A program made the translations under genes and the position numbers. Below the pieces are notes generated by a model. It ran no database searches. It saw nothing but the letters and a program-made list of their open reading frames with translations, and was not told where the DNA came from. Positions 3,605 through 56,250 of a DNA stretch of 64,000 nt are shown here, in pieces (positions within the stretch are counted from its first letter, which is position 1; each line of letters opens with the position of its first letter). Source of the stretch: Shigella phage pSb-1; sequence record KF620435; one strand, written 5' to 3'.

Positions 3605-4132
3605 TTATTCCTGTTCAAAAAGTTTACGGTCAGCCTGAATCTGTTTACCCAACTCAATTAGTTGGCTGTCACGGAGTCTAACAGTTGCCCTGAGTTCTTC
3701 AACCAAACGTCTGCCTTCTTCAAGACTGTTGTCGAGTCTGGCTGCATGGCTTGCAAGACTTCTGCACTCAAAGGTTCCGGCTTCGGCTTGACGTTTATAT
3801 ACCGATGCTCGTCTTTCAGACTGTTGCATCCGGCTGTCATAATCACTGCTAACGCGAGCAAGCTCGCTTGCGTAATTACTCTCAGCCGTCTGCAACCGGG
3901 AAGTAAGTAACCCAACTTCATAACTATGGTTTCTTTGGAGAGCATTGTATTTGTCCTGTAATTTTTGTATTGCCTTCTGATCTTCAATCTTTTGGTCATC
4001 CCACTTCTTTTGAACAGTAGACTGTCCGTTGGAATTACCCCAAAAGTAAATGGTGGCCCCGAGGACCACCACCAGAAGATAAGGCCAACCTTTAGAGATT
4101 AGCATCTTCATTACATGCCTCCAGCGGCACAT
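3605..4132 (-). CDS. i-spanin (Rz-like)
   Basis: N-terminal TM segment ([16 protein letters not shown]) followed by long coiled-coil; contains embedded out-of-frame lipoprotein ORF. Confidence 0.6.
3658..3921 (-). CDS. o-spanin (Rz1-like lipoprotein) embedded in i-spanin gene
   Basis: alternate frame inside Rz; signal peptide with lipobox ([12 protein letters not shown]); start chosen at internal Met. Confidence 0.5.
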   Translation of the reverse strand: MKLGYLLPGCRRLRVITQASLLALAVIMTAGCNSLKDEHRYINVKPKPEPLSAEVLQAMQPDSTTVLKKADVWLKNSGQLLDSVTAN

Positions 4133-4727
4133 TGCCTATTCGGTTAGCTACCCAACCATACGTAAAGTCTGGCATGTTTAATGAGGTGTAGTGGTTCAGT
4201 TGTTTAGCATCTAATAACTTAATCATTACCTGACATGCTGCAACTTTGCCTCGTTTTTTCTGTAATGCTTTATATGCATTAACAGTACTTGTACCGACTT
4301 TACCATCAACCTGTATTTTAGGGTAGTCTTTGCCATCACGGGACATTTCATTAAGAGATAACTGCAACCACTTAGCAGGACGAGTTACACCTGTGTTAAC
4401 ACCAGCATCCACCAGCTTATGTGTTACAGCAGGAGATATATCAGCGAAGGCTACGAAGTTAGGCTTAAGTACGTAGTCATCAATGTATATCTCAGCAGCC
4501 ATCTCTTTAGATAAACCTTTCATAGAACCATCCCAACCATACTCGGTAGCCAGAACTTCTTTATGAGTCTTAGCTACAGATTGGGTAATACCATGATTAG
4601 TTTCCCCACCTGGGTCACGAGGATTGTTTACATATCCCCCTTCCATATAAAACACTGCCCCCAGGATAGCAGCGATAACTCCTCCCACTGCACCACCTTT
4701 CGCAGCAAGTTTCTGTTTAGCTTTCAT
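4092..4727 (-). CDS. SAR-type endolysin, GH108 N-acetylmuramidase with PG_binding_3-like C-terminus
   Basis: EGGYVNNPRDPGGETNHGIT signature of glycoside hydrolase family 108; Gly/Ala-rich N-terminal signal-anchor-release-like segment. Confidence 0.8.
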   Translation of the reverse strand: MKAKQKLAAKGGAVGGVIAAILGAVFYMEGGYVNNPRDPGGETNHGITQSVAKTHKEVLATEYGWDGSMKGLSKEMAAEIYIDDYVLKPNFVAFADISPAVTHKLVDAGVNTGVTRPAKWLQLSLNEMSRDGKDYPKIQVDGKVGTSTVNAYKALQKKRGKVAACQVMIKLLDAKQLNHYTSLNMPDFTYGWVANRIGNVPLEACNEDANL

Positions 4728-50151: not shown

Positions 50152-50421
50152 GTGATAAAAACGGTGGTGACAAGCCGCCAGAGTAACAACAACAACCGAA
50201 CCAGTGTGCAGGAATACTCTCCCCTGTGCATTGGTTCAACTGAGGCTAATATGAACAAATTTACTATTCACTGGCTCAATGGGAAGGTTAGTTCTTTCAT
50301 GGGTGGAGAACCCGTTGAAGGAAAGAAAGCATTTCACATTGAATCAGAAGGCTGCAAAATCTTAGTACCATATGTTTGGTATAAAGATGGTGAAGTAGAA
50401 GCATTAAAAAAGAGTAGTTAA
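50152..50421 (+). CDS. hypothetical protein
   Basis: 89-aa ORF, last gene of plus block. Confidence 0.35.
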   Translation: MIKTVVTSRQSNNNNRTSVQEYSPLCIGSTEANMNKFTIHWLNGKVSSFMGGEPVEGKKAFHIESEGCKILVPYVWYKDGEVEALKKSS

Positions 50422-50821
50422 TATCGTGAAGGGTTCTGTTAGAATCCTTTGAGATAGGAACTCCTATCATAACCTTTCTTAACTTAATCTTTGCCGTATG
50501 GCACTGACGCTAGGGGTGGCCCCCCATCCGTCAGTCAGACTATTTTAAGAATGGGTTATCACAGAAAATGTAAAGCAACATTCGGGTTAATCAATGGCCT
50601 CTCCCTATAGAGGCCATTTCTGAATCTTAGGCTATATCCCAAAGGTTAGTATCTTTGGGATAAGGCTTCAGATCCCTTATCAACTAACGCTCATGTTGAG
50701 CACAACATTAACTAATAATGTCGGATAGTTCATTACGCTATTCATTCAGCATCGAGATGTTAGGTCTTACATGTAATATAGGGTATAAAGGGAGGATTCG
50801 TCCCCTCCTCCTATTATAATG

Positions 50822-50891
50822 GTCGGGGTAGCACGTAGGCATGTGCAGCTGGTCGCTACTTCTCTCGCTGGTTCGAATCCAGCCCCTGACC
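50822..50891 (+). tRNA. tRNA-like gene (anticodon arm not canonically foldable as given)
   Basis: acceptor GTCGGGG/CCCTGAC, D arm GCAC/GTGC, T arm GCTGG-TTCGAAT-CCAGC; anticodon region 2-3 nt too short. Confidence 0.55.
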
Positions 50892-51182
50892 TACTGACAT
50901 CCTATCAATGAGTACATTAGGCTAACGTGCGGAGGTTTACACTGTAGCCGGTGTAGGTAGAGAAGACGGCAGGGTAGCTACCTGTGCTTAGTGTACTCTT
51001 TGATAGGTTGTACTATCAAAGTCCAGACGATATCTGAGTGACTATAAAAACAGATGGAGCCAGGTGGAATCCCTGGCAATTAATTCAAAGTAGCATTGCA
51101 CTAATCCATCTCGGAATTCAAAGGCCAACCATGGAGCAGTGCTACTTTGAATTAGAAGAATTATGACGGGTCTGGTGAAGTA

Positions 51183-51276
51183 GATGGGGTTCGATTCCCT
51201 CCGGTGGATAAAACCACTAGCGTGCTTGGTGCACGAATAAGACTTAATACTGGTGGTTCGATTCCATCCCCCGTTA
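51183..51276 (+). tRNA. tRNA-like element(s) with two TTCGATT T-loop motifs
   Basis: GGGG-TTCGATT-CCCT and GGTGG-TTCGATT-CCATC motifs; no complete cloverleaf could be drawn. Confidence 0.3.
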
Positions 51277-51471
51277 TCCGAAGTCGCCAGGTACTTATGG
51301 CAAACGGGTAGTAACGAACTAGTCATTCGTCAAACGCCCACCCAATTATGAGTCAGCAAGAACGCCTTCACTTAAACTTAAACAAAAAAGCTTAACGCAA
51401 TAATTATGTAGGGGTATGTAAGGATTGCGAAGAAGGAGCCAGTTAAAGCCTGGCATGACTCACCTATTTAT

Positions 51472-51556
51472 GCCCACTTAGCTCAATGGTAGAGCGCAGG
51501 AAAGCTTCGAGAGAACAAGGTGTCTGTGGTCACTGGTTCGAATCCAGTAGTGGGTA
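51472..51556 (+). tRNA. tRNA-like gene, 85 nt (long-variable-arm type or disrupted)
   Basis: acceptor GCCCACT/AGTGGGT, D arm GCTC-AATGGTA-GAGC, T arm ACTGG-TTCGAAT-CCAGT; anticodon stem not resolved. Confidence 0.55.
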
Positions 51557-51783
51557 CTCATTAATAGAGAACATAGTCCTGATTGCATTGCACTCTAAAG
51601 ACAATGCCGGTGAGACAGTCCGGCACTCTAGTTATTGTAAACATGCCTATCGATATGAGTATGAGCAGACTATAATGCTCAAATACAGTTATCTATTATC
51701 GGACTATCAATCCTGTTTGCTGGTACAAGCACCAGTGGTAATAGTTAACTGGCCTAGCCTCGTTAGCTGCGTTAAAGCTACTA

Positions 51784-51813
51784 AGTCCCTCTTCGGAGGG
51801 ACTTTTTTATTTG
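51784..51813 (+). terminator. intrinsic terminator (AGTCCCTC-TTCG-GAGGGACT + T-tract)
   Basis: 8-bp stem, TTCG loop, TTTTTTATTT. Confidence 0.75.
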
Positions 51814-52240
51814 AGTATTAATAATTGGACATTCACTATGATTGACCTAATCTCTACTCCGTATGCCTATGAGGTAACGGATAACCGAGGGCACAAGTAC
51901 TTGGTATTTGCAGGTAGCGTAGCCTATAACAACGCAGTCATGTTTAAGTACAAACTCAAACCACTCTATGAGGCTAATAATGGAATTTGATGATTTAGAT
52001 TTTGAAGCTATCGAAAAAGCGAACCAAGCAAAACTGGAACAAGCTAACCGTGAAGCTGAAGAACTGGAAAATGCCAAAGATAACAATGAATGTACAAGTG
52101 GTGGTTGCACTATCTAGTACAAAAGCGTAAGGTGGTTTTTACCGAAAGGTACTGAACTACCCGACAAAGTAGTAAGGCTTAAAAAGCCAAAACAAAACAA
52201 GCCCTCCTAGTGAGGGCTTTCTCATTTATAGGAAAATAGC

Positions 52241-52563: not shown

Positions 52564-55500
52564 TCAGGGTATGGGCACGTAAGCCTTGTCCGAAACCGAA
52601 TGAGTAACCGAGGTTGCCTGTGCAGCAATACTAAAGATGTTGTCCTGAATAGGCAAACCAACGTTACCAAACATGGTAGGAGTTGGAGCCAACATAGCCA
52701 TAGCAGCATGTACTGGGTTATTACGAATCATGGACACTGCAACTTTTGCAGAACGAATCTTAAAGTTGTAGAACCACATTAAACCAACACTTTCCATATA
52801 CCCACGGAATCGACCAGGTAAACGGTCATAGTTAATGAACTCTTCCGTTACACGTCCCAGTGCTTCTTCACGAGTCTTACCTTTACGCTGGGTCAATTCA
52901 TCATAGATGATTGCTTTAGCGATAAAGTCAGAGTACTCAACCGTTTTCTGGATACCCTGGAATAGAGCAGTATCCTTAGTGAAAAGTGCATAACGACCTG
53001 CGTTACGTACAGACTTAGGCAGCTTATCAGCTAGCTTATCCATGTATTCGTGAAGTTTACCTTCAGTAATCAGGATGTCATCACGACCAATACCAGCATC
53101 TGCAATTGAAGAGAACTCACCAGCTTCTAACAGAGGCCAGATACTCAAACGCTTATGGCTATCCGTAATGGACTGAATCTCAGCCTTAAGTTTACGAATC
53201 TGGTTCGGGTTAGTAGCTGCACGTAATTCTGCTTCTGCATCTACCTGACGAAGTCGAGATTTCAGGTACTGGTTAATCTCAGCAGTCTTCTGTGGAATGC
53301 TCTTAGCAATGTTCTTAACAGGTACACCACGAGCAACCATCTGGTAAAGGTTAGCCAAGAAGTTAACAGCAGGTACAATCACTGACTTAACTACAATCAG
53401 GGTCTTAGCTTCTTTAACTAAGTTTTGAACCAGATTCTCACCACCCATTACATACTTATAGGCACGGTTGCCAAATACACCCAACATAGCTTTCTTGAAG
53501 GTATCCAGTGTTTCTGGGGACCAACGAGAATTACCAGACCAGGCATCCCCAACAGAAGCTGCACGATAACCCAGAGCATCATTCAGCATGTCACGACGTA
53601 CCCACAACTCACCTGGGCCAAACAGACTTTCTGCTTTCTGACGTGTTTCACTGTTCATCAGCTTAAGAGCATCAGCAGTCACTGGGTCCAGTTTGGAACC
53701 AAGAAGGTTCACGTACTGGGACTTATTAGAAGCAGACATCTTAATGTCGTTCTCATACATGCTATACAGGTTCTCAATTAGCATATCGTTGAAACGCTGA
53801 GCCTTAGCCTCTTCTACCTGACGACCACGCCATACACCGATTGCACGGGCAAGATGGTTTTCACCCTCGATGTGCTTCAGCATATTAGGGTCAATGGATT
53901 GCTCGTAAGCAACCACATTACCATTGGCATCATATACAGGCAGGAGTGGTTCATTACCACGTTCACCACGAGCCAGTGCTTTAGTGATACGGTCTACGGA
54001 AGGCTTGTCAGTGATACGACCAGCTACCATGGTTCCCATAGTAAAGCCTGTACCAAGGTCTACACCACCAGCAGTATTGCGAACGTTCTGTAAGATACCT
54101 TGGGAGAACGGAGCCTGTGCCTGTACTGGTGCAAAGTAGTAGCTACGTGCCGGTCCACGATTAGCAGAGCTACCTTGATAAGTGCCCAGTCGTACATAGG
54201 ATTTTTCAATCAAATCAGCAAACTGACTATCTTCAGCAACAATCAGGTTAACACCTTGTTTGTTCTCACCGGGAATATACCCTTTGTACTGGTTCAGGGT
54301 TGCACGGCTATCAGACTTGGCTTTAGCCATTTCATCTTTACGCTGACCAACCAGGTAAGAAGTAGCAAAGTCCATGCCTTCAATTTCTGTCTGAGCCAGT
54401 GAAGATAACATCTCACGGTCAGTCTTATTCATTGCTTCCAGTGCATACAGGGTAATGAGTTTATCCAGTTGAGCTACGTCTACAGTAGAACGTGTAGTCT
54501 TACGTTCACCCAGCAAGCGAGAAATTGCAGTAGCATTACGCAGCAGGTTATTACCGACTGTACCGTTAATCATGTACTGAGCCAGTTGCTTAGATTTACG
54601 GCTAATCAGGGGCCAGTTACGCCCTGCTTGTTTCTGCAAATCTGCTTCCAGTTTATTAACTTCACGGTCAACAATCTTCTGGTCAGTCAGCAAGTCACGG
54701 ATTTCAGCCAGAGACATAGTATCACGCAGGACAGCTAAGTCAGTTTTACCCATGCCAGTATGCATTGCTTTCCACTCTTCATTAGTCAGTTTACGACTGA
54801 ACTTAGATGCGATAGTGGTAGGCAAGTGTTCACGGAACTGTTGACGGTCAGCTTGTACCTGTGCACGAACTGCCTTAATCAAATCGTATACAGAAGCATT
54901 GCTCTTAGTACGTCCAATTATGTCATTAACCAGGTCATGGAAAGGTTGCCATACTTTACCCTGGTTCATTGCAGCCATAACACCTTCCGCTACGATTGAA
55001 CCATTCTTCTCTGTAGCAATAGCAGCTATCAGTTGTGCAGCATGAGCAGCACCTTTAACCAACGGGTTTTTGGTATTAGCTGCAACTTCACGAGCACCTT
55101 CCAATGCACGGGTAGACAGTACATCAATAGAGTCCACCAGATACTGGTTAGCACGGTCAATAGCATTACCGGTAGGAGTAGCAACGGAATCATAGAAGGA
55201 CTCTGCATTAAGACTGGTCTGCATGATTGTCTGAGCCAGTGCATCCATACCTTCCTGTACGTTAGTGGCTTTAGTATCACCTGCTACACGAGCATTCAGA
55301 CTAGCCATTGCAGCAGTACCGATGTTAGTCAGCATTGCATCAACGGTATTACCTGATTTCTTATCTGCTTTCATAACAGGAATGTCAGCCAGTACTTTAC
55401 GTACCTCTTCACTTACCATTGCCAGGCCAACAAAGGTAGGCAGTAAGGAAGAACGACCCTGTGCATCAAACTCAATGTTGTTAGCACCCATGATGGTATC

Positions 55501-56250
55501 GAACCTCTGCTGTGCATAATAACGGTCAGCAGGGTTAGTACTATCTGGGTCAGACATGAACGCTTCAACAGTCAGGTTCTTAGTAACATGTGTGTAGTAT
55601 TCCTGTGCACGAGCCAAAGCAGCTGGATTAATAGCAGCCTCGGTAGCCAGTGCAGCAACAATATTAGTGAAGAGACGTTGTTCCTGCATATTCATAGTGA
55701 AACCATGAGCCTGAACATCACGAGTTACTTTAGTTGCATTCACTACTGCATCAGAGAACTTACCTTTACGAATTACTTGCTGTACTGGCTCTGAACCAAT
55801 GTAGTCAGTAATCAGCTTATCGAAGGTCTTACCTAGCTCTTCCAGACGGGTATTGTCACCGTATGCTTTGTTATGGAACAGAGTAGTGTCTTTGGCTACA
55901 GCAGCAGTAGGAGCTTGTCCACGCATAACTACAGCAGAGTTAAACAGTAAGCCAGAGAACATATCATCTGCATTAGCAGGAGCTTTCTTACGTCCAAATA
56001 TCAGACGTTTGATTGCTTCATATACAGCCTGAACCATAGTTTTAAGTGCAGTGGTTTTCTTCTGCTTACTAATAAGTTCACGGTTAGTTAAGCCCCAAGC
56101 CATGTACTCATTCAGTGCAGCAGCTTTAGCCATTGCTGGTTCAATGAAGCCATTAGACAAGTGACCATTAATGGTATTCAGTGCATCAGCATATGCTTCA
56201 CGTACTGCCGGAGATTCATCCTTAACATCCAGAGAACGGAACTGGTTCAT
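52564..56250 (-). CDS. virion RNA polymerase (vRNAP), C-terminal region
   Basis: 1228-aa ORF whose start overlaps the stop of the polymerase-core ORF (TGATG) with 1-nt frame offset. Confidence 0.6.
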   Translation of the reverse strand: MNQFRSLDVKDESPAVREAYADALNTINGHLSNGFIEPAMAKAAALNEYMAWGLTNRELISKQKKTTALKTMVQAVYEAIKRLIFGRKKAPANADDMFSGLLFNSAVVMRGQAPTAAVAKDTTLFHNKAYGDNTRLEELGKTFDKLITDYIGSEPVQQVIRKGKFSDAVVNATKVTRDVQAHGFTMNMQEQRLFTNIVAALATEAAINPAALARAQEYYTHVTKNLTVEAFMSDPDSTNPADRYYAQQRFDTIMGANNIEFDAQGRSSLLPTFVGLAMVSEEVRKVLADIPVMKADKKSGNTVDAMLTNIGTAAMASLNARVAGDTKATNVQEGMDALAQTIMQTSLNAESFYDSVATPTGNAIDRANQYLVDSIDVLSTRALEGAREVAANTKNPLVKGAAHAAQLIAAIATEKNGSIVAEGVMAAMNQGKVWQPFHDLVNDIIGRTKSNASVYDLIKAVRAQVQADRQQFREHLPTTIASKFSRKLTNEEWKAMHTGMGKTDLAVLRDTMSLAEIRDLLTDQKIVDREVNKLEADLQKQAGRNWPLISRKSKQLAQYMINGTVGNNLLRNATAISRLLGERKTTRSTVDVAQLDKLITLYALEAMNKTDREMLSSLAQTEIEGMDFATSYLVGQRKDEMAKAKSDSRATLNQYKGYIPGENKQGVNLIVAEDSQFADLIEKSYVRLGTYQGSSANRGPARSYYFAPVQAQAPFSQGILQNVRNTAGGVDLGTGFTMGTMVAGRITDKPSVDRITKALARGERGNEPLLPVYDANGNVVAYEQSIDPNMLKHIEGENHLARAIGVWRGRQVEEAKAQRFNDMLIENLYSMYENDIKMSASNKSQYVNLLGSKLDPVTADALKLMNSETRQKAESLFGPGELWVRRDMLNDALGYRAASVGDAWSGNSRWSPETLDTFKKAMLGVFGNRAYKYVMGGENLVQNLVKEAKTLIVVKSVIVPAVNFLANLYQMVARGVPVKNIAKSIPQKTAEINQYLKSRLRQVDAEAELRAATNPNQIRKLKAEIQSITDSHKRLSIWPLLEAGEFSSIADAGIGRDDILITEGKLHEYMDKLADKLPKSVRNAGRYALFTKDTALFQGIQKTVEYSDFIAKAIIYDELTQRKGKTREEALGRVTEEFINYDRLPGRFRGYMESVGLMWFYNFKIRSAKVAVSMIRNNPVHAAMAMLAPTPTMFGNVGLPIQDNIFSIAAQATSVTHSVSDKAYVPIP

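What the first reader, a model, noticed from the sequence alone, without database searches (positions are those of the whole stretch)
50780..51560. tRNA-like cluster with non-canonical anticodon arms
Clear acceptor, D and T arms (GGTTCGAATCC-type T-loops) define elements at 50822-50891 and 51472-51556, and two more T-loop motifs lie at 51186-51268. The segment between D and T arms is too short in the first (20 nt against 22-23 expected) and too long in the second (35 nt), and no 5-bp anticodon stem can be drawn. They may be genuine tRNAs damaged by the same deletion-type errors, or degenerate or unusual tRNA-like RNAs.
Basis: seen in the sequence. Interest (0 to 1): 0.45.

Follow-up and report, generated by a model that had tools for sequence, protein, structure and literature searches.

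The report
Non-decoding tRNA-shaped RNAs in N4-like phage
This stretch of an N4-like coliphage carries three tRNA-shaped RNA genes that cannot read codons; two belong to conserved RNA families shared by unrelated phages, so they are real genes of unknown function rather than sequencing damage.

Summary
The T-loop motif GGTTCRAWTCC occurs four times in the 64-kb window, all on the + strand at 50870-51545, against 0.13 expected by chance.

The motifs define three elements, not four:
- E1, 50821-50891.
- E2, 51164-51277. Both middle T-loops belong to this single 114-nt RNA.
- E3, 51472-51556.

The window is a Gamaleyavirus (N4-like). The elements lie in a roughly 1.36-kb non-coding unit between a sigma70-like promoter and a strong terminator.

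None of the odd features is a sequencing error. Independent genomes carry the same architectures without indels.

E3 has a canonical tRNA body. Its anticodon arm is replaced by a near-invariant hairpin, CAGG-ARAGY-UUC-GNRA-GAA-CAAGGUG-YCUG. It recurs inside tRNA clusters of Ackermannviridae and a T5-like phage, with a covarying acceptor stem. The same hairpin sits in the anticodon-arm position of a different cloverleaf in temperate phages.

E2 also occurs in tRNA clusters of T4-like phages; 14 of its 27 pairs show compensatory changes.

E1 is confined to a few Gamaleyaviruses and looks degenerate.

My best reading is that these are non-decoding tRNA-like RNAs matured by host tRNA enzymes. E3 acts as a natural tRNA scaffold displaying a portable hairpin. 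The target is unknown; a decoy or anti-defence role is a guess.

The parts
50418..50445 (+). Sigma70-like promoter (TTAATA-16-TG-TAGAAT), immediately after the last upstream ORF. Candidate start of the non-coding transcription unit.
   Evidence: Consensus scan only. The number of promoter-like sites in the region does not exceed chance, so this is an inference.
50821..50891 (+). E1, a tRNA-like element. Layout: 8-bp acceptor (50821-28 with 50884-91); 6-bp D stem with a 4-nt loop (50831-46); T arm (50867-83); central 50847-66 with only 3 of 5 anticodon-stem pairs. Positions 50849-50850 are hypervariable among relatives.
   Evidence: Rfam tRNA-Sec 26.7 bits, below its gathering score of 47; ARAGORN calls the homologues tRNA-Ala(cgc).
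50902..51006 (+). Module M2, a long irregular helix (CTATCAA-T-GAGTACATTAGGC ... GCTTAGTGTACTC-T-TTGATAG). In relatives it lies directly upstream of a tmRNA-tag-like module that this window lacks.
   Evidence: Read from the sequence. Mosaic map. The shared start UCCUAUCAAUGAGUACAUU is also present in Klebsiella phage VLCpiP4a.
51007..51021 (+). Deletion junction. Relatives carry about 250-270 nt here: the tag module plus a tRNA-Cys-like or P-stem hairpin. The window has GTTGTA-CTATCAAAG instead, which can pair with 50998-51006.
   Evidence: HK2 and PW8 share this junction. The resume-codon motif GCAAACGA is absent from the whole window.
51164..51277 (+). E2, a 114-nt tRNA-like RNA with two T-loops. 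Layout: acceptor-like stem 51164-70 with 51270-76; GG-containing 15-nt segment 51171-85; T-like hairpin 51186-51200; variable hairpin 51203-18; hairpin 51221-35 with loop UUGGU; conserved single strand 51236-51 (GACUUAAUA); true T arm 51252-68.
   Evidence: RNAalifold. Covariation count: 27 pairs, 97.1% paired, 14 compensatory, 0 of 500 shuffles as high. Covariance model R1 scores 133 bits here and 107-114 bits in T4-like and Klebsiella N4-like phages.
51392..51423 (+). 32-nt motif (…ATGTAGGGGTATGTAAGG…) shared with the 3' domain of a stand-alone RNA of about 490 nt in Buchananvirus Sa179lw.
   Evidence: blastn, 87.5% over 32 nt, E = 4e-6, collinear in St11Ph5.
51472..51556 (+). E3, a tRNA body carrying a payload arm. 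Layout: acceptor 51472-78 with 51549-55; D arm 51481-95; arm stem CAGG 51497-51500 with TCTG 51523-26; 22-nt interior 51501-22 containing TTC-GAGA-GAA (51506-15); variable loop 51527-31; T arm 51532-48; discriminator A 51556.
51783..51814 (+). Intrinsic terminator (9-bp stem AAGTCCCTC/GAGGGACTT followed by a T run). Candidate end of the non-coding unit.
   Evidence: Conserved in relatives.

Best explanation
The cluster consists of three tRNA-shaped RNA genes that do not decode codons. They lie in a dedicated non-coding transcription unit of about 1.36 kb in a Gamaleyavirus (N4-like) phage.

Shown:
- E3 is a fully canonical tRNA body. Its anticodon arm is replaced by a near-invariant 30-nt hairpin: a 4-bp stem, a purine-rich internal loop, and most likely a UUC/GAA helix capped by a GNRA tetraloop.
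- The same gene sits among ordinary tRNAs in Ackermannviridae and in a T5-like phage. Its acceptor stem covaries freely while the arm stays fixed.
- The same arm occupies the anticodon-arm position of an unrelated cloverleaf in temperate-phage RNAs.
- E2 is a five-helix RNA: an acceptor/T-arm minihelix plus a second T-loop hairpin and two further hairpins. It is conserved with many compensatory changes between N4-like and T4-like phages.
- E1 is restricted to a few Gamaleyaviruses and carries disruptive substitutions.

Inferred:
- The unit is transcribed as one precursor.
- The tRNA-like ends are cut by host RNase P and 3'-processing enzymes, and CCA is added. This would yield stable small RNAs.
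- E3 works as a natural 'tRNA scaffold' that presents a portable hairpin to an unknown partner.
- E2 presents tRNA-elbow-like surfaces.
- Both act as ligands or decoys, for example for tRNA-directed host factors or defence nucleases, and not in translation.
- E1 is probably a decaying relic.
- The presence/absence mosaic of modules arises by recombination between the repeated T-arm sequences.
For: Identity of the window and the locus:
- The window is a Gamaleyavirus; the locus lies between the gp47-like ORFs and the virion RNA polymerase gene.
- ARAGORN finds no tRNA in the window. Rfam finds only E3, through its body.

E3:
- Sequences 93-97% identical occur in T5-like phage EP_H11, 5 nt after tRNA-Gly; in Kuttervirus Vi01, just after tRNA-Ser; and in Agtrevirus SKML-39, 3 nt after tRNA-Ser. 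They also occur in the N4-like phages HK2 and Bas96.
- About 138 phage records hold it. They annotate it inconsistently as tRNA-OTHER, Leu, Pro or Val, or not at all.
- All 23 pairs are formed in all 7 sequences. 5 of 7 acceptor pairs are compensatory, and the discriminator varies between A and C.
- Variation inside the arm falls only at the two middle tetraloop positions (GAGA, GGAA, GGGA, GAAA) and at two internal-loop positions.
- The arm also sits in a second scaffold: lambdoid prophages L013, L048 and L151, and Klebsiella phage JYSS3 (L160). A metagenome scan gave 14 true hits, found only in these two scaffolds.

E2:
- Homologues lie between tRNA-Met and tRNA-Arg in Dhakavirus VR5, and next to tRNA-Met in Kanagawavirus PEi20. 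Further homologues are in Karamvirus CkP1 and in two Klebsiella N4-like phages.
- 14 of 27 pairs are compensatory, 97.1% of cells are paired, and slid controls collapse to 40-58%.
- Model R1 finds them at 107-133 bits.

No artefact: there are no indels inside E1, E2 or E3 relative to the nearest relatives.

Recombination: the Moonfish hybrid joins the E1 5' part to another module's T arm and 3' acceptor. E1 is precisely absent in HK2, and E3 is precisely absent in St11Ph5.

Transcription unit: promoter-like site and terminator.

Context: anti-defence genes are annotated just downstream in relatives. Phage tRNAs are known to counter tRNA-cleaving defences (PMC10264068, PMC11464382, PMC13056530).
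Against: - No expression, processing or binding data exist for this phage.
- The partner of the E3 arm is unknown. I found no similarity or complementarity to E. coli 16S, 23S or 5S rRNA, nor to 4.5S RNA or tmRNA.
- The GNRA hairpin is not proven. ViennaRNA prefers an alternative GCUU/AGGU pairing for most variants, and the observed variation fits both.
- None of the three elements encodes a 3' CCA in this window.
- All modules are dispensable in some relative: presence and absence vary between phages.
- Sequence diversity of E3 is low, so only its acceptor stem gives covariation.
- Promoter-like sites in the region are no more frequent than chance.
Confidence: 0.55

Rival explanations
1. The elements are decaying tRNA pseudogenes with no function. 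They would be relics of a former phage tRNA array, eroded by substitutions and by recombination between T arms.
For: E1:
- Found in only 12 phage records, all Gamaleyavirus.
- In the window its anticodon stem has 2 mismatches. It is intact in St11Ph5.
- PW8 carries a T-loop G57-to-U change and a broken D-stem pair. Bp4 has an A-C mismatch in the acceptor.
- Moonfish carries a non-pairing hybrid.

All modules are present in some relatives and absent in others. In the window the GNRA loop of the E2 variable hairpin is degraded to AUAAAA.
Against: - E2 keeps 5 helices with 14 compensatory pairs across two phage families.
- The E3 arm is more conserved than its acceptor stem across three phage families and a second scaffold.
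- Pseudogenes would not be retained in about 125 Kuttervirus genomes.
Confidence: 0.2
2. E3, and possibly E2, is an intron-containing tRNA that becomes a normal decoding tRNA after splicing. This is what tRNAscan or ARAGORN intron modes imply.
For:
- GenBank annotators list homologues as tRNA-Val, Leu or Pro.
Against: - There is no unique solution. Deleting 8-17 nt at any of 66 positions yields a 'tRNA' with many different anticodons, and the annotations disagree with one another.
- The stem has only 4 bp. No bulge-helix-bulge motif is present: the bulges are 5 and 7 nt around a 3-bp helix.
- Enterobacteria have no tRNA splicing endonuclease, and bacterial tRNA introns are group I introns of more than 200 nt (established knowledge).
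- The 'intron' is the most conserved part, and it also occurs in a non-tRNA scaffold.
Confidence: 0.04
3. The elements are ordinary tRNA genes corrupted by deletion-type sequencing errors in this assembly.
For: The window has a 1-nt deletion in a C run at 52619 in the vRNAP gene relative to three relatives, and 1-nt homopolymer differences at 50513 and 50807.
Against: - E1 has the same length in 5 independent genomes.
- E2 and E3 have no indels relative to HK2 and others.
- E3 is 11 nt longer than a tRNA, not shorter. The same architecture occurs in about 138 records and in metagenomes.
Confidence: 0.02
4. The tRNA-like elements are components, or remnants, of a phage tmRNA-like (trans-translation) system. 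E1 or E3 would serve as the tRNA-like domain for the tag-encoding module that relatives carry between M2 and M3.
For: - Relatives carry a tag frame, ANDDVVLMAA** (ANDNTFLAVA* in Vi01). Its Ala-Ala codons differ only synonymously in three lineages: GCG GCG, GCA GCC and GCU GCU.
- Rfam tmRNA_permuted reaches its gathering score in Klebsiella phage VLCpiP4a (47.8 against 47), and scores 26-33 bits elsewhere.
- The E3 arm sits in the cloverleaf of the RNAs that carry this tag in temperate phages. That cloverleaf is followed by N-CCA in L151 and L048.
- Kuttervirus carries both the tag module and E3, about 2.8 kb apart on the same strand.
Against: - The window has no tag module: GCAAACGA is absent and there is a deletion junction at 51007-51021.
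- The tag occurs without E1 (UE-S5b), E1 occurs without the tag (window, PW8), and E3 occurs without the tag (window, HK2).
- No G3-U70 pair is present in E1, E2, E3 or the cloverleaf.
- ARAGORN with default settings finds no tmRNA in any locus.
- The relaxed ARAGORN 'tmRNAp' call in the window (tag AHPIMSQQERLHLNLNKKA) has a C-terminus that is not conserved in relatives.
Confidence: 0.1

Closest known systems
Phage T4 'species 1' and 'species 2' stable RNAs (rnaC, rnaD)
   Same: Small stable RNAs of unknown function encoded in a phage tRNA cluster. rnaC ends with a canonical T arm (CCGGG-TTCGAAT-CCCGG) followed by an acceptor-like strand. E2 homologues likewise sit inside tRNA clusters of T4-like phages.
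   Different: No detectable homology. The E2 covariance model gives no hit on rnaC or rnaD. They share only an 8-mer, ACUUAAUA, before the T arm, which may be chance. E2 has two T-loops and lies at a different position in the cluster.
Engineered tRNA scaffolds for RNA expression (Ponchon and Dardel, 2007; cited from memory)
   Same: E3 has exactly that design. An intact acceptor, D arm and T arm carry a foreign hairpin grafted in place of the anticodon stem-loop. The engineered versions are known to give RNase-resistant, correctly processed RNA in E. coli.
   Different: E3 is natural, conserved and horizontally spread. Its payload and target are unknown.
tRNA-like processing elements: plant mitochondrial t-elements (PMC1920247) and mascRNA-type elements
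   Same: An acceptor/T-arm mimic without a working anticodon arm, embedded in a longer transcript where RNase P and RNase Z cuts define RNA ends.
   Different: Those elements mainly mark the ends of neighbouring RNAs. Here the elements themselves are conserved, especially the E3 arm and the internal hairpins of E2. That points to a function of the excised RNA.
Phage tRNAs that counter tRNA-cleaving defences (PMC10264068, PMC11464382, bioRxiv 10.1101/2023.03.15.532788, PMC13056530)
   Same: tRNA-shaped phage RNAs with altered anticodon loops, encoded in tRNA clusters or accessory regions of T5-like and other virulent enterobacterial phages.
   Different: Those are decoding tRNAs that replace cleaved host tRNAs. 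E2 and E3 have no anticodon loop at all, so they could at best act as decoys. This was not tested.
tmRNA and permuted tmRNA (Rfam RF00023, RF04321)
   Same: A tRNA-like acceptor/T-arm domain without an anticodon. Relatives of this phage carry a tag-like reading frame in the same locus.
   Different: The window has no tag frame, no G3-U70 pair and no Rfam or default ARAGORN hit.
Bacterial Y RNA YrlA tRNA-like domain (PMC4201824)
   Same: A non-coding RNA that mimics the tRNA D and T arms and carries a different module where the anticodon stem would be.
   Different: In YrlA the RNA ends emerge from the anticodon-stem side, which binds Ro/Rsr. E3 has an open acceptor end. There was no Rfam match to any Y RNA family.

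Membership tests
Canonical decoding tRNA (Rfam RF00005) | 7-bp acceptor stem, D arm with GG, T arm with a TΨC-type loop | tested here: met
   E3 meets all three and scores 54 bits against a gathering score of 29. E1 has an 8-bp acceptor and a 6-bp D stem. E2 has an acceptor and T arm but no D stem conserved across families.
Canonical decoding tRNA (Rfam RF00005) | 5-bp anticodon stem with a 7-nt loop (U33, anticodon, purine 37) | tested here: not met
   E3 has a 4-bp stem enclosing 22 nt in every homologue. E2 has none. E1 forms 3 of 5 pairs in the window, and its loop GUCGCUA has G32 and U37. ARAGORN with default settings finds 0 genes.
Canonical decoding tRNA (Rfam RF00005) | Conserved aminoacylation identity (acceptor or discriminator, or anticodon) | tested here: not met
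   In E3 the pair at 1-72 is G-U, G-C or U-A. The discriminator is A or C, there is no G3-U70 and no anticodon. Charging itself cannot be tested here.
tRNA-Sec (Rfam RF01852) | 8-bp acceptor with 5-bp T stem, and a 6-bp D stem with a 4-nt loop | tested here: met
   E1 has GGTCGGGG/CCCTGACC, GCACGT-AGGC-ATGTGC and GCTGG/CCAGC.
tRNA-Sec (Rfam RF01852) | UCA anticodon, long variable arm, score at or above the gathering score | tested here: not met
   There is no UCA. Only 20 nt lie between the D and T arms. The score is 26.7 bits against 47.
tmRNA or permuted tmRNA (RF00023, RF04321) | Tag reading frame with a resume codon, ending in hydrophobic Ala-Ala plus stop | tested here: not met
   Absent from the window but present in relatives. 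The relaxed ARAGORN candidate in the window was judged a false positive.
tmRNA or permuted tmRNA (RF00023, RF04321) | G3-U70 in the acceptor stem of the tRNA-like domain | tested here: not met
   Not present in E1, E2 or E3.
Intron-containing tRNA (archaeal or eukaryal bulge-helix-bulge type) | Two 3-nt bulges flanking a 4-bp helix, with exons that rejoin into a 5-bp stem and 7-nt loop | tested here: not met
   E3 has internal loops of 5 and 7 nt around a 3-bp helix. The deletion scan gives no unique product.
T4 rnaC/rnaD stable RNAs | Sequence and structure homology | tested here: not met
   Model R1 gives no hit at L161 1909-2172 up to E = 10 with default filters.
E2 family (defined here; model R1) | Five helices in order, invariant UUCGAUU and YUGGW loops, and the GACUUARUA linker | tested here: met
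   The window scores 133 bits, but it is one of the sequences the model was built from. All 13 members, including the 5 from T4-like phages and Klebsiella N4-like phages at 107-114 bits, were training sequences. The independent support is the covariation count.
E3 family (defined here; alignment A2) | tRNA body plus the arm CAGG-ARAGY-UUC-GNRA-GAA-CAAGGUG-YCUG | tested here: met
   Window 51497-51526 matches exactly.

The most novel reading that the evidence does not exclude
E2 and E3 are founding members of two undescribed families of non-decoding, tRNA-shaped phage RNAs, exchanged horizontally among unrelated virulent enterobacterial phages (N4-like, T4-like, T5-like and Ackermannviridae).

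E3 would be a natural tRNA scaffold displaying a portable GNRA-capped hairpin. The same hairpin is displayed by the tRNA-like cloverleaf of a widespread phage RNA of about 500 nt that carries a tmRNA-like tag frame.

The hairpin, on either scaffold, would bind a conserved host or phage factor. It could act as an RNA decoy against tRNA-directed immunity, or as the tRNA-like partner of a phage-encoded trans-translation-like system.
Probability: 0.3. Interest if true: 0.8.

Novelty: new variant of a known kind. Interest (0 to 1): 0.6.

Why it matters
Phage tRNA genes have recently been recast as counter-defence tools, but attention has stayed on decoding tRNAs. This locus shows that enterobacterial phages also keep and exchange tRNA-shaped RNAs that cannot decode.

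Two points stand out:
- E3 looks like a natural version of the laboratory 'tRNA scaffold'. It carries a conserved hairpin that is reused on a second scaffold.
- E2 is a double-T-loop RNA with strong covariation.

Neither matched any Rfam family at its gathering score here, apart from the generic tRNA model matching the E3 body. GenBank records leave them unannotated or name them inconsistently.

They give concrete, testable candidates for RNA-based phage-host interference. They also bear on the old puzzle of stable RNAs in phage tRNA clusters, such as T4 rnaC and rnaD.

On the practical side, annotation pipelines currently call E3 tRNA-Val, Leu, Pro or OTHER at random.

Tried and rejected
- **Sequencing-error explanation.** Rejected by comparison with independent genomes.
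- **Intron explanation for E3.** ARAGORN intron modes and a systematic deletion scan gave 66 arbitrary solutions.
- **Mimicry or antisense pairing of the E3 arm to E. coli RNAs.** Resemblances seen by eye did not hold on inspection: the sarcin-ricin loop (CGAGAG), SRP domain IV, kink-turn, CsrA sites, boxB, and CRISPR or ToxI repeats.
- **Host or other bacterial copies of the arm.** The GTDB species-representative scan gave only chance matches. In E. coli, the arm was found in only 11 of 5426 genomes, at prophage loci where I looked.
- **Homology of E2 to T4 rnaC/rnaD.** No covariance-model hit.
- **A short ORF in E2 ending at the conserved UAA/UAG.** The frame is not conserved in T4-like homologues (read from alignment A4).
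- **A tmRNA in the window.** No Rfam or default ARAGORN hit. The relaxed ARAGORN 'tmRNAp' call was rejected because its tag C-terminus is not conserved.
- **D-like hairpin of E2 (51171-74 with 51181-84).** Predicted by RNAalifold on N4-like sequences only. The pairs fail in the T4-like and Klebsiella homologues (alignment A4), so I left it out of the model.
- **Literature.** Searches found no description of these elements or of the tag ANDDVVLMAA.
Full report
**What the window is**

The region around the finding matches N4-like phages of the genus Gamaleyavirus (St11Ph5, Bp4, ECBP1, HK2, PW8, G7C) at 85-97% identity.

In those genomes the stretch lies between the gp46/gp47-like ORFs and the virion RNA polymerase gene. 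It is almost free of annotated genes except for sporadic 'tRNA' calls: Ala, Cys, Ile/Xle, Thr-pseudo and OTHER.

In the window, ORFs stop at 50421. A sigma70-like promoter lies at 50418-50445 and a strong intrinsic terminator at 51783-51814. Together they bracket about 1.36 kb without a credible ORF.

**Checking the observation**

The T-loop motif GGTTCRAWTCC occurs four times in the 64 kb, all on the + strand, at 50870, 51188, 51255 and 51535. The chance expectation is 0.13.

ARAGORN with default settings finds no tRNA in the whole window. Rfam at gathering thresholds finds one match, tRNA at 51472-51556 (54 bits). Its alignment has 24 nt where the model expects 11 in the anticodon loop region.

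The two middle T-loops turn out to belong to one RNA.

**Not sequencing damage**

- E1 (50821-50891) has exactly the same length as its homologues in St11Ph5, Bp4, ECBP1 and PW8. ARAGORN calls those tRNA-Ala(cgc). E1 differs only by substitutions.
- E2 and E3 align without indels to HK2 and other genomes.
- The window does carry a 1-nt deletion in a C run at 52619 inside the vRNAP gene, relative to three relatives. Assembly errors may therefore exist elsewhere, but they do not explain these elements.

**E3 (51472-51556)**

- *Body.* It has a 7-bp acceptor, the D arm GCUC-AAUGGUA-GAGC, the variable loop UGGUC and the T arm ACUGG-UUCGAAU-CCAGU.
- *Arm.* In place of a 17-nt anticodon arm stands CAGG-AAAGC-UUC-GAGA-GAA-CAAGGUG-UCUG.
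- *Distribution.*
  - T5-like phage EP_H11 carries the same gene 5 nt after tRNA-Gly.
  - Kuttervirus Vi01 carries it just after tRNA-Ser.
  - Agtrevirus SKML-39 carries it 3 nt after tRNA-Ser.
  - The N4-like phages HK2 and Bas96 also carry it.
- *Records.* About 138 phage records hold it, mostly Kuttervirus. They annotate it as tRNA-OTHER, Leu, Pro or Val, or not at all.
- *Covariation.* In a 7-sequence alignment all 23 pairs are formed in every sequence, and 5 of the 7 acceptor pairs change on both sides. The D arm, T arm and the arm are invariant apart from a G-U to G-C change.
- *Identity.* The 1-72 pair and the discriminator vary and there is no G3-U70. No consistent aminoacylation identity is visible.
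- *Variation in the arm.* It is confined to the two middle tetraloop positions (GAGA, GGAA, GGGA, GAAA, always G-N-R-A) and two internal-loop positions. This fits a UUC/GAA helix capped by a GNRA loop. However, ViennaRNA prefers a GCUU/AGGU alternative for most variants, which the data cannot exclude.

**The E3 arm is a portable module**

The same 30-34 nt occur in a different context in:
- lambdoid prophages: L013 and L151 between Q and the holin gene, and L048 between the repressor region and N;
- Klebsiella phage JYSS3.

There the arm occupies the anticodon-arm position of another cloverleaf: P1, AAU, GCGCA-GGCUGA-UGCGC, G, the arm, 6-7 nt, then GCCGG-AGWUCAGCR-CCGGY closing back to P1. P1 covaries between loci.

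A metagenome scan for the arm interior gave 14 genuine hits, all in one of these two scaffolds, plus 5 chance hits in coding sequence. The scan of GTDB species representatives gave only chance matches. Only 11 of 5426 complete E. coli genomes hold the arm, at prophage loci where I looked.

**E3 is not an intron-containing tRNA**

- Deleting 8-17 nt anywhere in the arm yields 66 different ARAGORN 'tRNAs' with many anticodons.
- Relaxed ARAGORN modes call Pro or Leu, while GenBank annotators call Val, Leu, Pro or OTHER.
- There is no bulge-helix-bulge geometry.
- The 'intron' is the most conserved part of the gene.

**E3 locus alleles**

In Bp4, ECBP1, PW8 and Moonfish the same slot holds a canonical tRNA-Ile(AAU). 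It scores 64.8 bits in Bp4 and ECBP1 and has the same acceptor and T arm as E3. In St11Ph5 the slot is empty.

**E2 (51164-51277)**

RNAalifold on eight Gamaleyavirus copies gives the following layout:
- an acceptor-like closing stem;
- a T-like hairpin, GGGG-UUCGAUU-CCCU;
- a variable hairpin, capped by GUAA in most relatives and degraded to AUAAAA in the window;
- a hairpin CGUGC-UUGGU-GCACG;
- a conserved single strand containing GACUUAAUA;
- a true T arm, GGUGG-UUCGAUU-CCAUC, one nucleotide before the 3' strand of the closing stem.

BLAST then found homologues at 73-80% identity:
- inside the tRNA clusters of two T4-like phages: Dhakavirus VR5, between tRNA-Met and tRNA-Arg, and Kanagawavirus PEi20;
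- in a third T4-like phage, Karamvirus CkP1;
- in two Klebsiella N4-like phages.

On a 13-sequence alignment the five helices hold. 97.1% of cells are paired, and 14 of 27 pairs have changes on both sides. No shuffle out of 500 reached any observed measure, and slid controls fall to 40-58% paired.

A covariance model (R1) scores 133 bits in the window and 107-114 bits in the other families. All of these were training sequences.

The D-like hairpin predicted on N4-like sequences alone fails in the other families, so I dropped it.

From the anatomy I infer, without a test, that each of the two T-loops docks a GG-containing loop: the 5' GG segment and the YUGGW loop. That would give two tRNA-elbow-like modules.

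R1 gives no hit on T4 rnaC or rnaD. These classical stable RNAs are therefore an analogue, not a demonstrated homologue.

**E1 (50821-50891)**

It folds with an 8-bp acceptor, a 6-bp D stem with a 4-nt loop and a 5-bp T stem. This geometry resembles tRNA-Sec, but the Rfam tRNA-Sec score is 26.7 bits against 47. There is also no UCA anticodon and no long variable arm.

It occurs in only 12 records, all Gamaleyavirus.

The would-be anticodon stem is intact in St11Ph5 and PW8 (AGAAG/CUUCU). It has one mismatch in Bp4 and two in the window.

The two responsible positions, 50849-50850, read CT, AA, AT or TT in otherwise 96-97% identical copies, while the partner strand is constant. I cannot explain this hypervariable dinucleotide.

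PW8 also has a T-loop G57-to-U change and a broken D-stem pair, and Bp4 has an A-C mismatch in the acceptor. E1 is best read as a lineage-specific, probably decaying tRNA-like gene.

**Mosaic structure**

Pairwise maps show that the locus is built of modules that are precisely present or absent between relatives:
- E1 is missing in HK2 and UE-S5b.
- E3 is missing in St11Ph5.
- Two further tRNA-like modules ending in A-CCA-AUU (Bp4 2445-2632) are missing in the window.
- E2 is replaced by other sequence in Bp4.

Shigella phage Moonfish carries a hybrid of the E1 5' part with the T arm and 3' acceptor of another module. This shows that recombination between the repeated T-arm sequences generates the deletions.

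Other relatives carry further tRNA-shaped genes with non-canonical anticodon loops. One example is UE-S5b 'tRNA-OTHER', which has a 6-nt loop.

**Side lead: a tmRNA-tag-like module (absent from the window)**

- *The tag frame.* Between M2 (window 50902-51006) and M3, the relatives carry a module with the frame GCA AAC GAU GAU GUU GUU CUG AUG GCN GCN UAA, which reads ANDDVVLMAA. The two Ala codons differ only synonymously among St11Ph5 (GCG GCG), Bp4 (GCA GCC) and Klebsiella phage VLCpiP4a (GCU GCU). Vi01 has ANDNTFLAVA in the same conserved frame context.
- *Rfam.* tmRNA_permuted reaches its gathering score in VLCpiP4a (47.8 against 47) and scores 26-33 bits elsewhere, mainly through the tag region.
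- *Distribution.* The module matches 691 phage records, none annotated as an RNA gene in the rows shown. They include Kuttervirus, Felixounavirus, Buchananvirus, and Klebsiella and Erwinia phages.
- *A stand-alone gene.* In Buchananvirus Sa179lw the module starts a gene of about 490 nt with its own promoter and terminator. That gene also contains the cloverleaf and a motif found in the window at 51392-51423.
- *In the window.* The module is deleted, with a junction at 51007-51021, and the resume motif is absent.
- *Independence from E1 and E3.* The tag occurs without E1, and E1 and E3 occur without the tag. The window's elements are therefore not obligatory parts of that system.

**Mechanism**

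Shown: E2 and E3 are conserved structured RNAs with tRNA-type acceptor/T-arm ends and no anticodon loop. They are embedded among tRNAs in other phages, at the spacing typical of tRNA arrays.

Inferred from established knowledge of tRNA maturation: an acceptor/T-arm minihelix is sufficient for RNase P and the CCA-adding enzyme, and T4 tRNAs lacking an encoded CCA depend on host CCA addition. The elements would therefore be excised from the precursor and stabilised like tRNAs.

E3 would then act as a carrier for its invariant hairpin, and E2 as a tRNA-elbow mimic.

What they bind is unknown. A decoy role against tRNA-directed host nucleases is plausible for two reasons. Defences that cleave or modify tRNAs and phage counter-tRNAs are well documented (PMC10264068, PMC11464382, PMC13056530). 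Anti-defence genes are also annotated just downstream in relatives. Nothing here tests that role.

**Novelty and score**

tRNA-like non-coding RNAs are a known kind: T4 rnaC/rnaD, t-elements, the tmRNA tRNA-like domain and YrlA. These two families, and the reuse of one hairpin on two tRNA-like scaffolds, were not found in Rfam 15 or in the papers searched. I rate the finding a new variant of a known kind, with interest 0.6.

Noticed in passing
Relatives: L001 2103-2290, L002 2126-2215, L169 578-799, L170 770-900, L151 2240-2431, L171 1201-1388. Window junction 51007-51021.: A tmRNA-tag-like module is absent from the window but matches 691 phage records; none of the listed rows annotates an RNA gene there. 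The tag reads ANDDVVLMAA** in N4-like and lambdoid phages and ANDNTFLAVA* in Vi01. The Ala-Ala codons differ only synonymously in three lineages. Rfam tmRNA_permuted passes its gathering score in Klebsiella phage VLCpiP4a (47.8 against 47). ARAGORN finds no tmRNA in any of the loci I scanned with it (L001-L004, L151, L169-L171).
   Followed up: partly
L171 about 1160-1690; L160 about 1640-2130; L152 about 1760-2210; L151 2160-2640; L013 about 3990-4215 (minus strand): A structured RNA of about 500 nt occurs in Buchananvirus, Jedunavirus and lambdoid or CPS-53-like prophages. It consists of an optional tag module, a long covarying stem (ACAACAGGNAAG...CAYT / AGTG...CCNGTTGT), a tRNA-like cloverleaf with a variable 'anticodon' arm, a 3' domain and a terminator. 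The cloverleaf is followed by N-CCA in L151 and L048. Part of the sequence matches 682 of 5426 E. coli genomes. There is no Rfam match.
   Followed up: partly
window 52619: A 1-nt deletion in a C run inside the virion RNA polymerase gene, relative to St11Ph5, HK2 and Bp4. The longest ORF there is only 1228 aa (52564-56250, minus strand). This is probably a frameshift, possibly a sequencing error.
   Followed up: partly
window 51984-52097: The gp48-like gene of relatives (381 nt, for example L001 3834-4214) has no counterpart. About 114 nt of unrelated sequence lie there instead.
   Followed up: no
window 50849-50850: A hypervariable dinucleotide in E1: CT here, AA in St11Ph5 and PW8, AT in Bp4 and ECBP1, TT in Moonfish. 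The copies are otherwise 96-97% identical and the opposite strand is constant. Unexplained.
   Followed up: partly
L163 1503-1580 (Shigella phage Moonfish): A hybrid element joins the E1 5' acceptor, D arm and centre to the T arm and 3' acceptor of a different module (…GGTTCGAGTCCAGACGCCGGAACCAATT). This is direct evidence that recombination between T-arm repeats reshuffles the locus.
   Followed up: yes
window 51082-51154, 51059-51077 and 50998-51021: Further strong hairpins in the non-coding unit. One is a near-perfect inverted repeat of 18-20 bp (AATTCAAAGTAGCATTGCAC / GCAGTGCTACTTTGAATT). One is GCCAGG-TGGAATC-CCTGGC. One is CTTTGATAG-GTTGTA-CTATCAAAG, which competes with the M2 helix.
   Followed up: no
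L013 4307-4368 (minus strand): A weak Hammerhead_3 match (30.5 bits against a gathering score of 48.5, E = 4.5e-4) lies upstream of the cloverleaf RNA in a lambdoid prophage.
   Followed up: no
L163 2938-3065 (Moonfish gp18); hit H15 (phage 24-32N): Relatives annotate a Thoeris anti-defence 2-like protein and an anti-CRISPR protein next to this non-coding locus. The region may be an accessory or anti-defence hotspot.
   Followed up: no
window 51212-51557: ARAGORN at an 80% score threshold proposes a permuted tmRNA with the tag AHPIMSQQERLHLNLNKKA (51336-51395). I judged it a false positive: the C-terminus shifts frame in Bp4 and St11Ph5, which differ by an indel at 51386-51391.
   Followed up: yes
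window 50815-50820: A perfect TATAAT hexamer abuts the first base of E1, just after a GGGAGGA-TTCG-TCCCCTCC hairpin (50789-50808). The scan flagged no -35 partner.
   Followed up: no
L170 3766-3851 (Vi01): The Vi01 copy of E3 was not reported by the Rfam E-value scan of that locus, although the window copy scores 54 bits. The speed filters probably lose it because of the 24-nt insertion. Automated pipelines will therefore detect this gene erratically.
   Followed up: no
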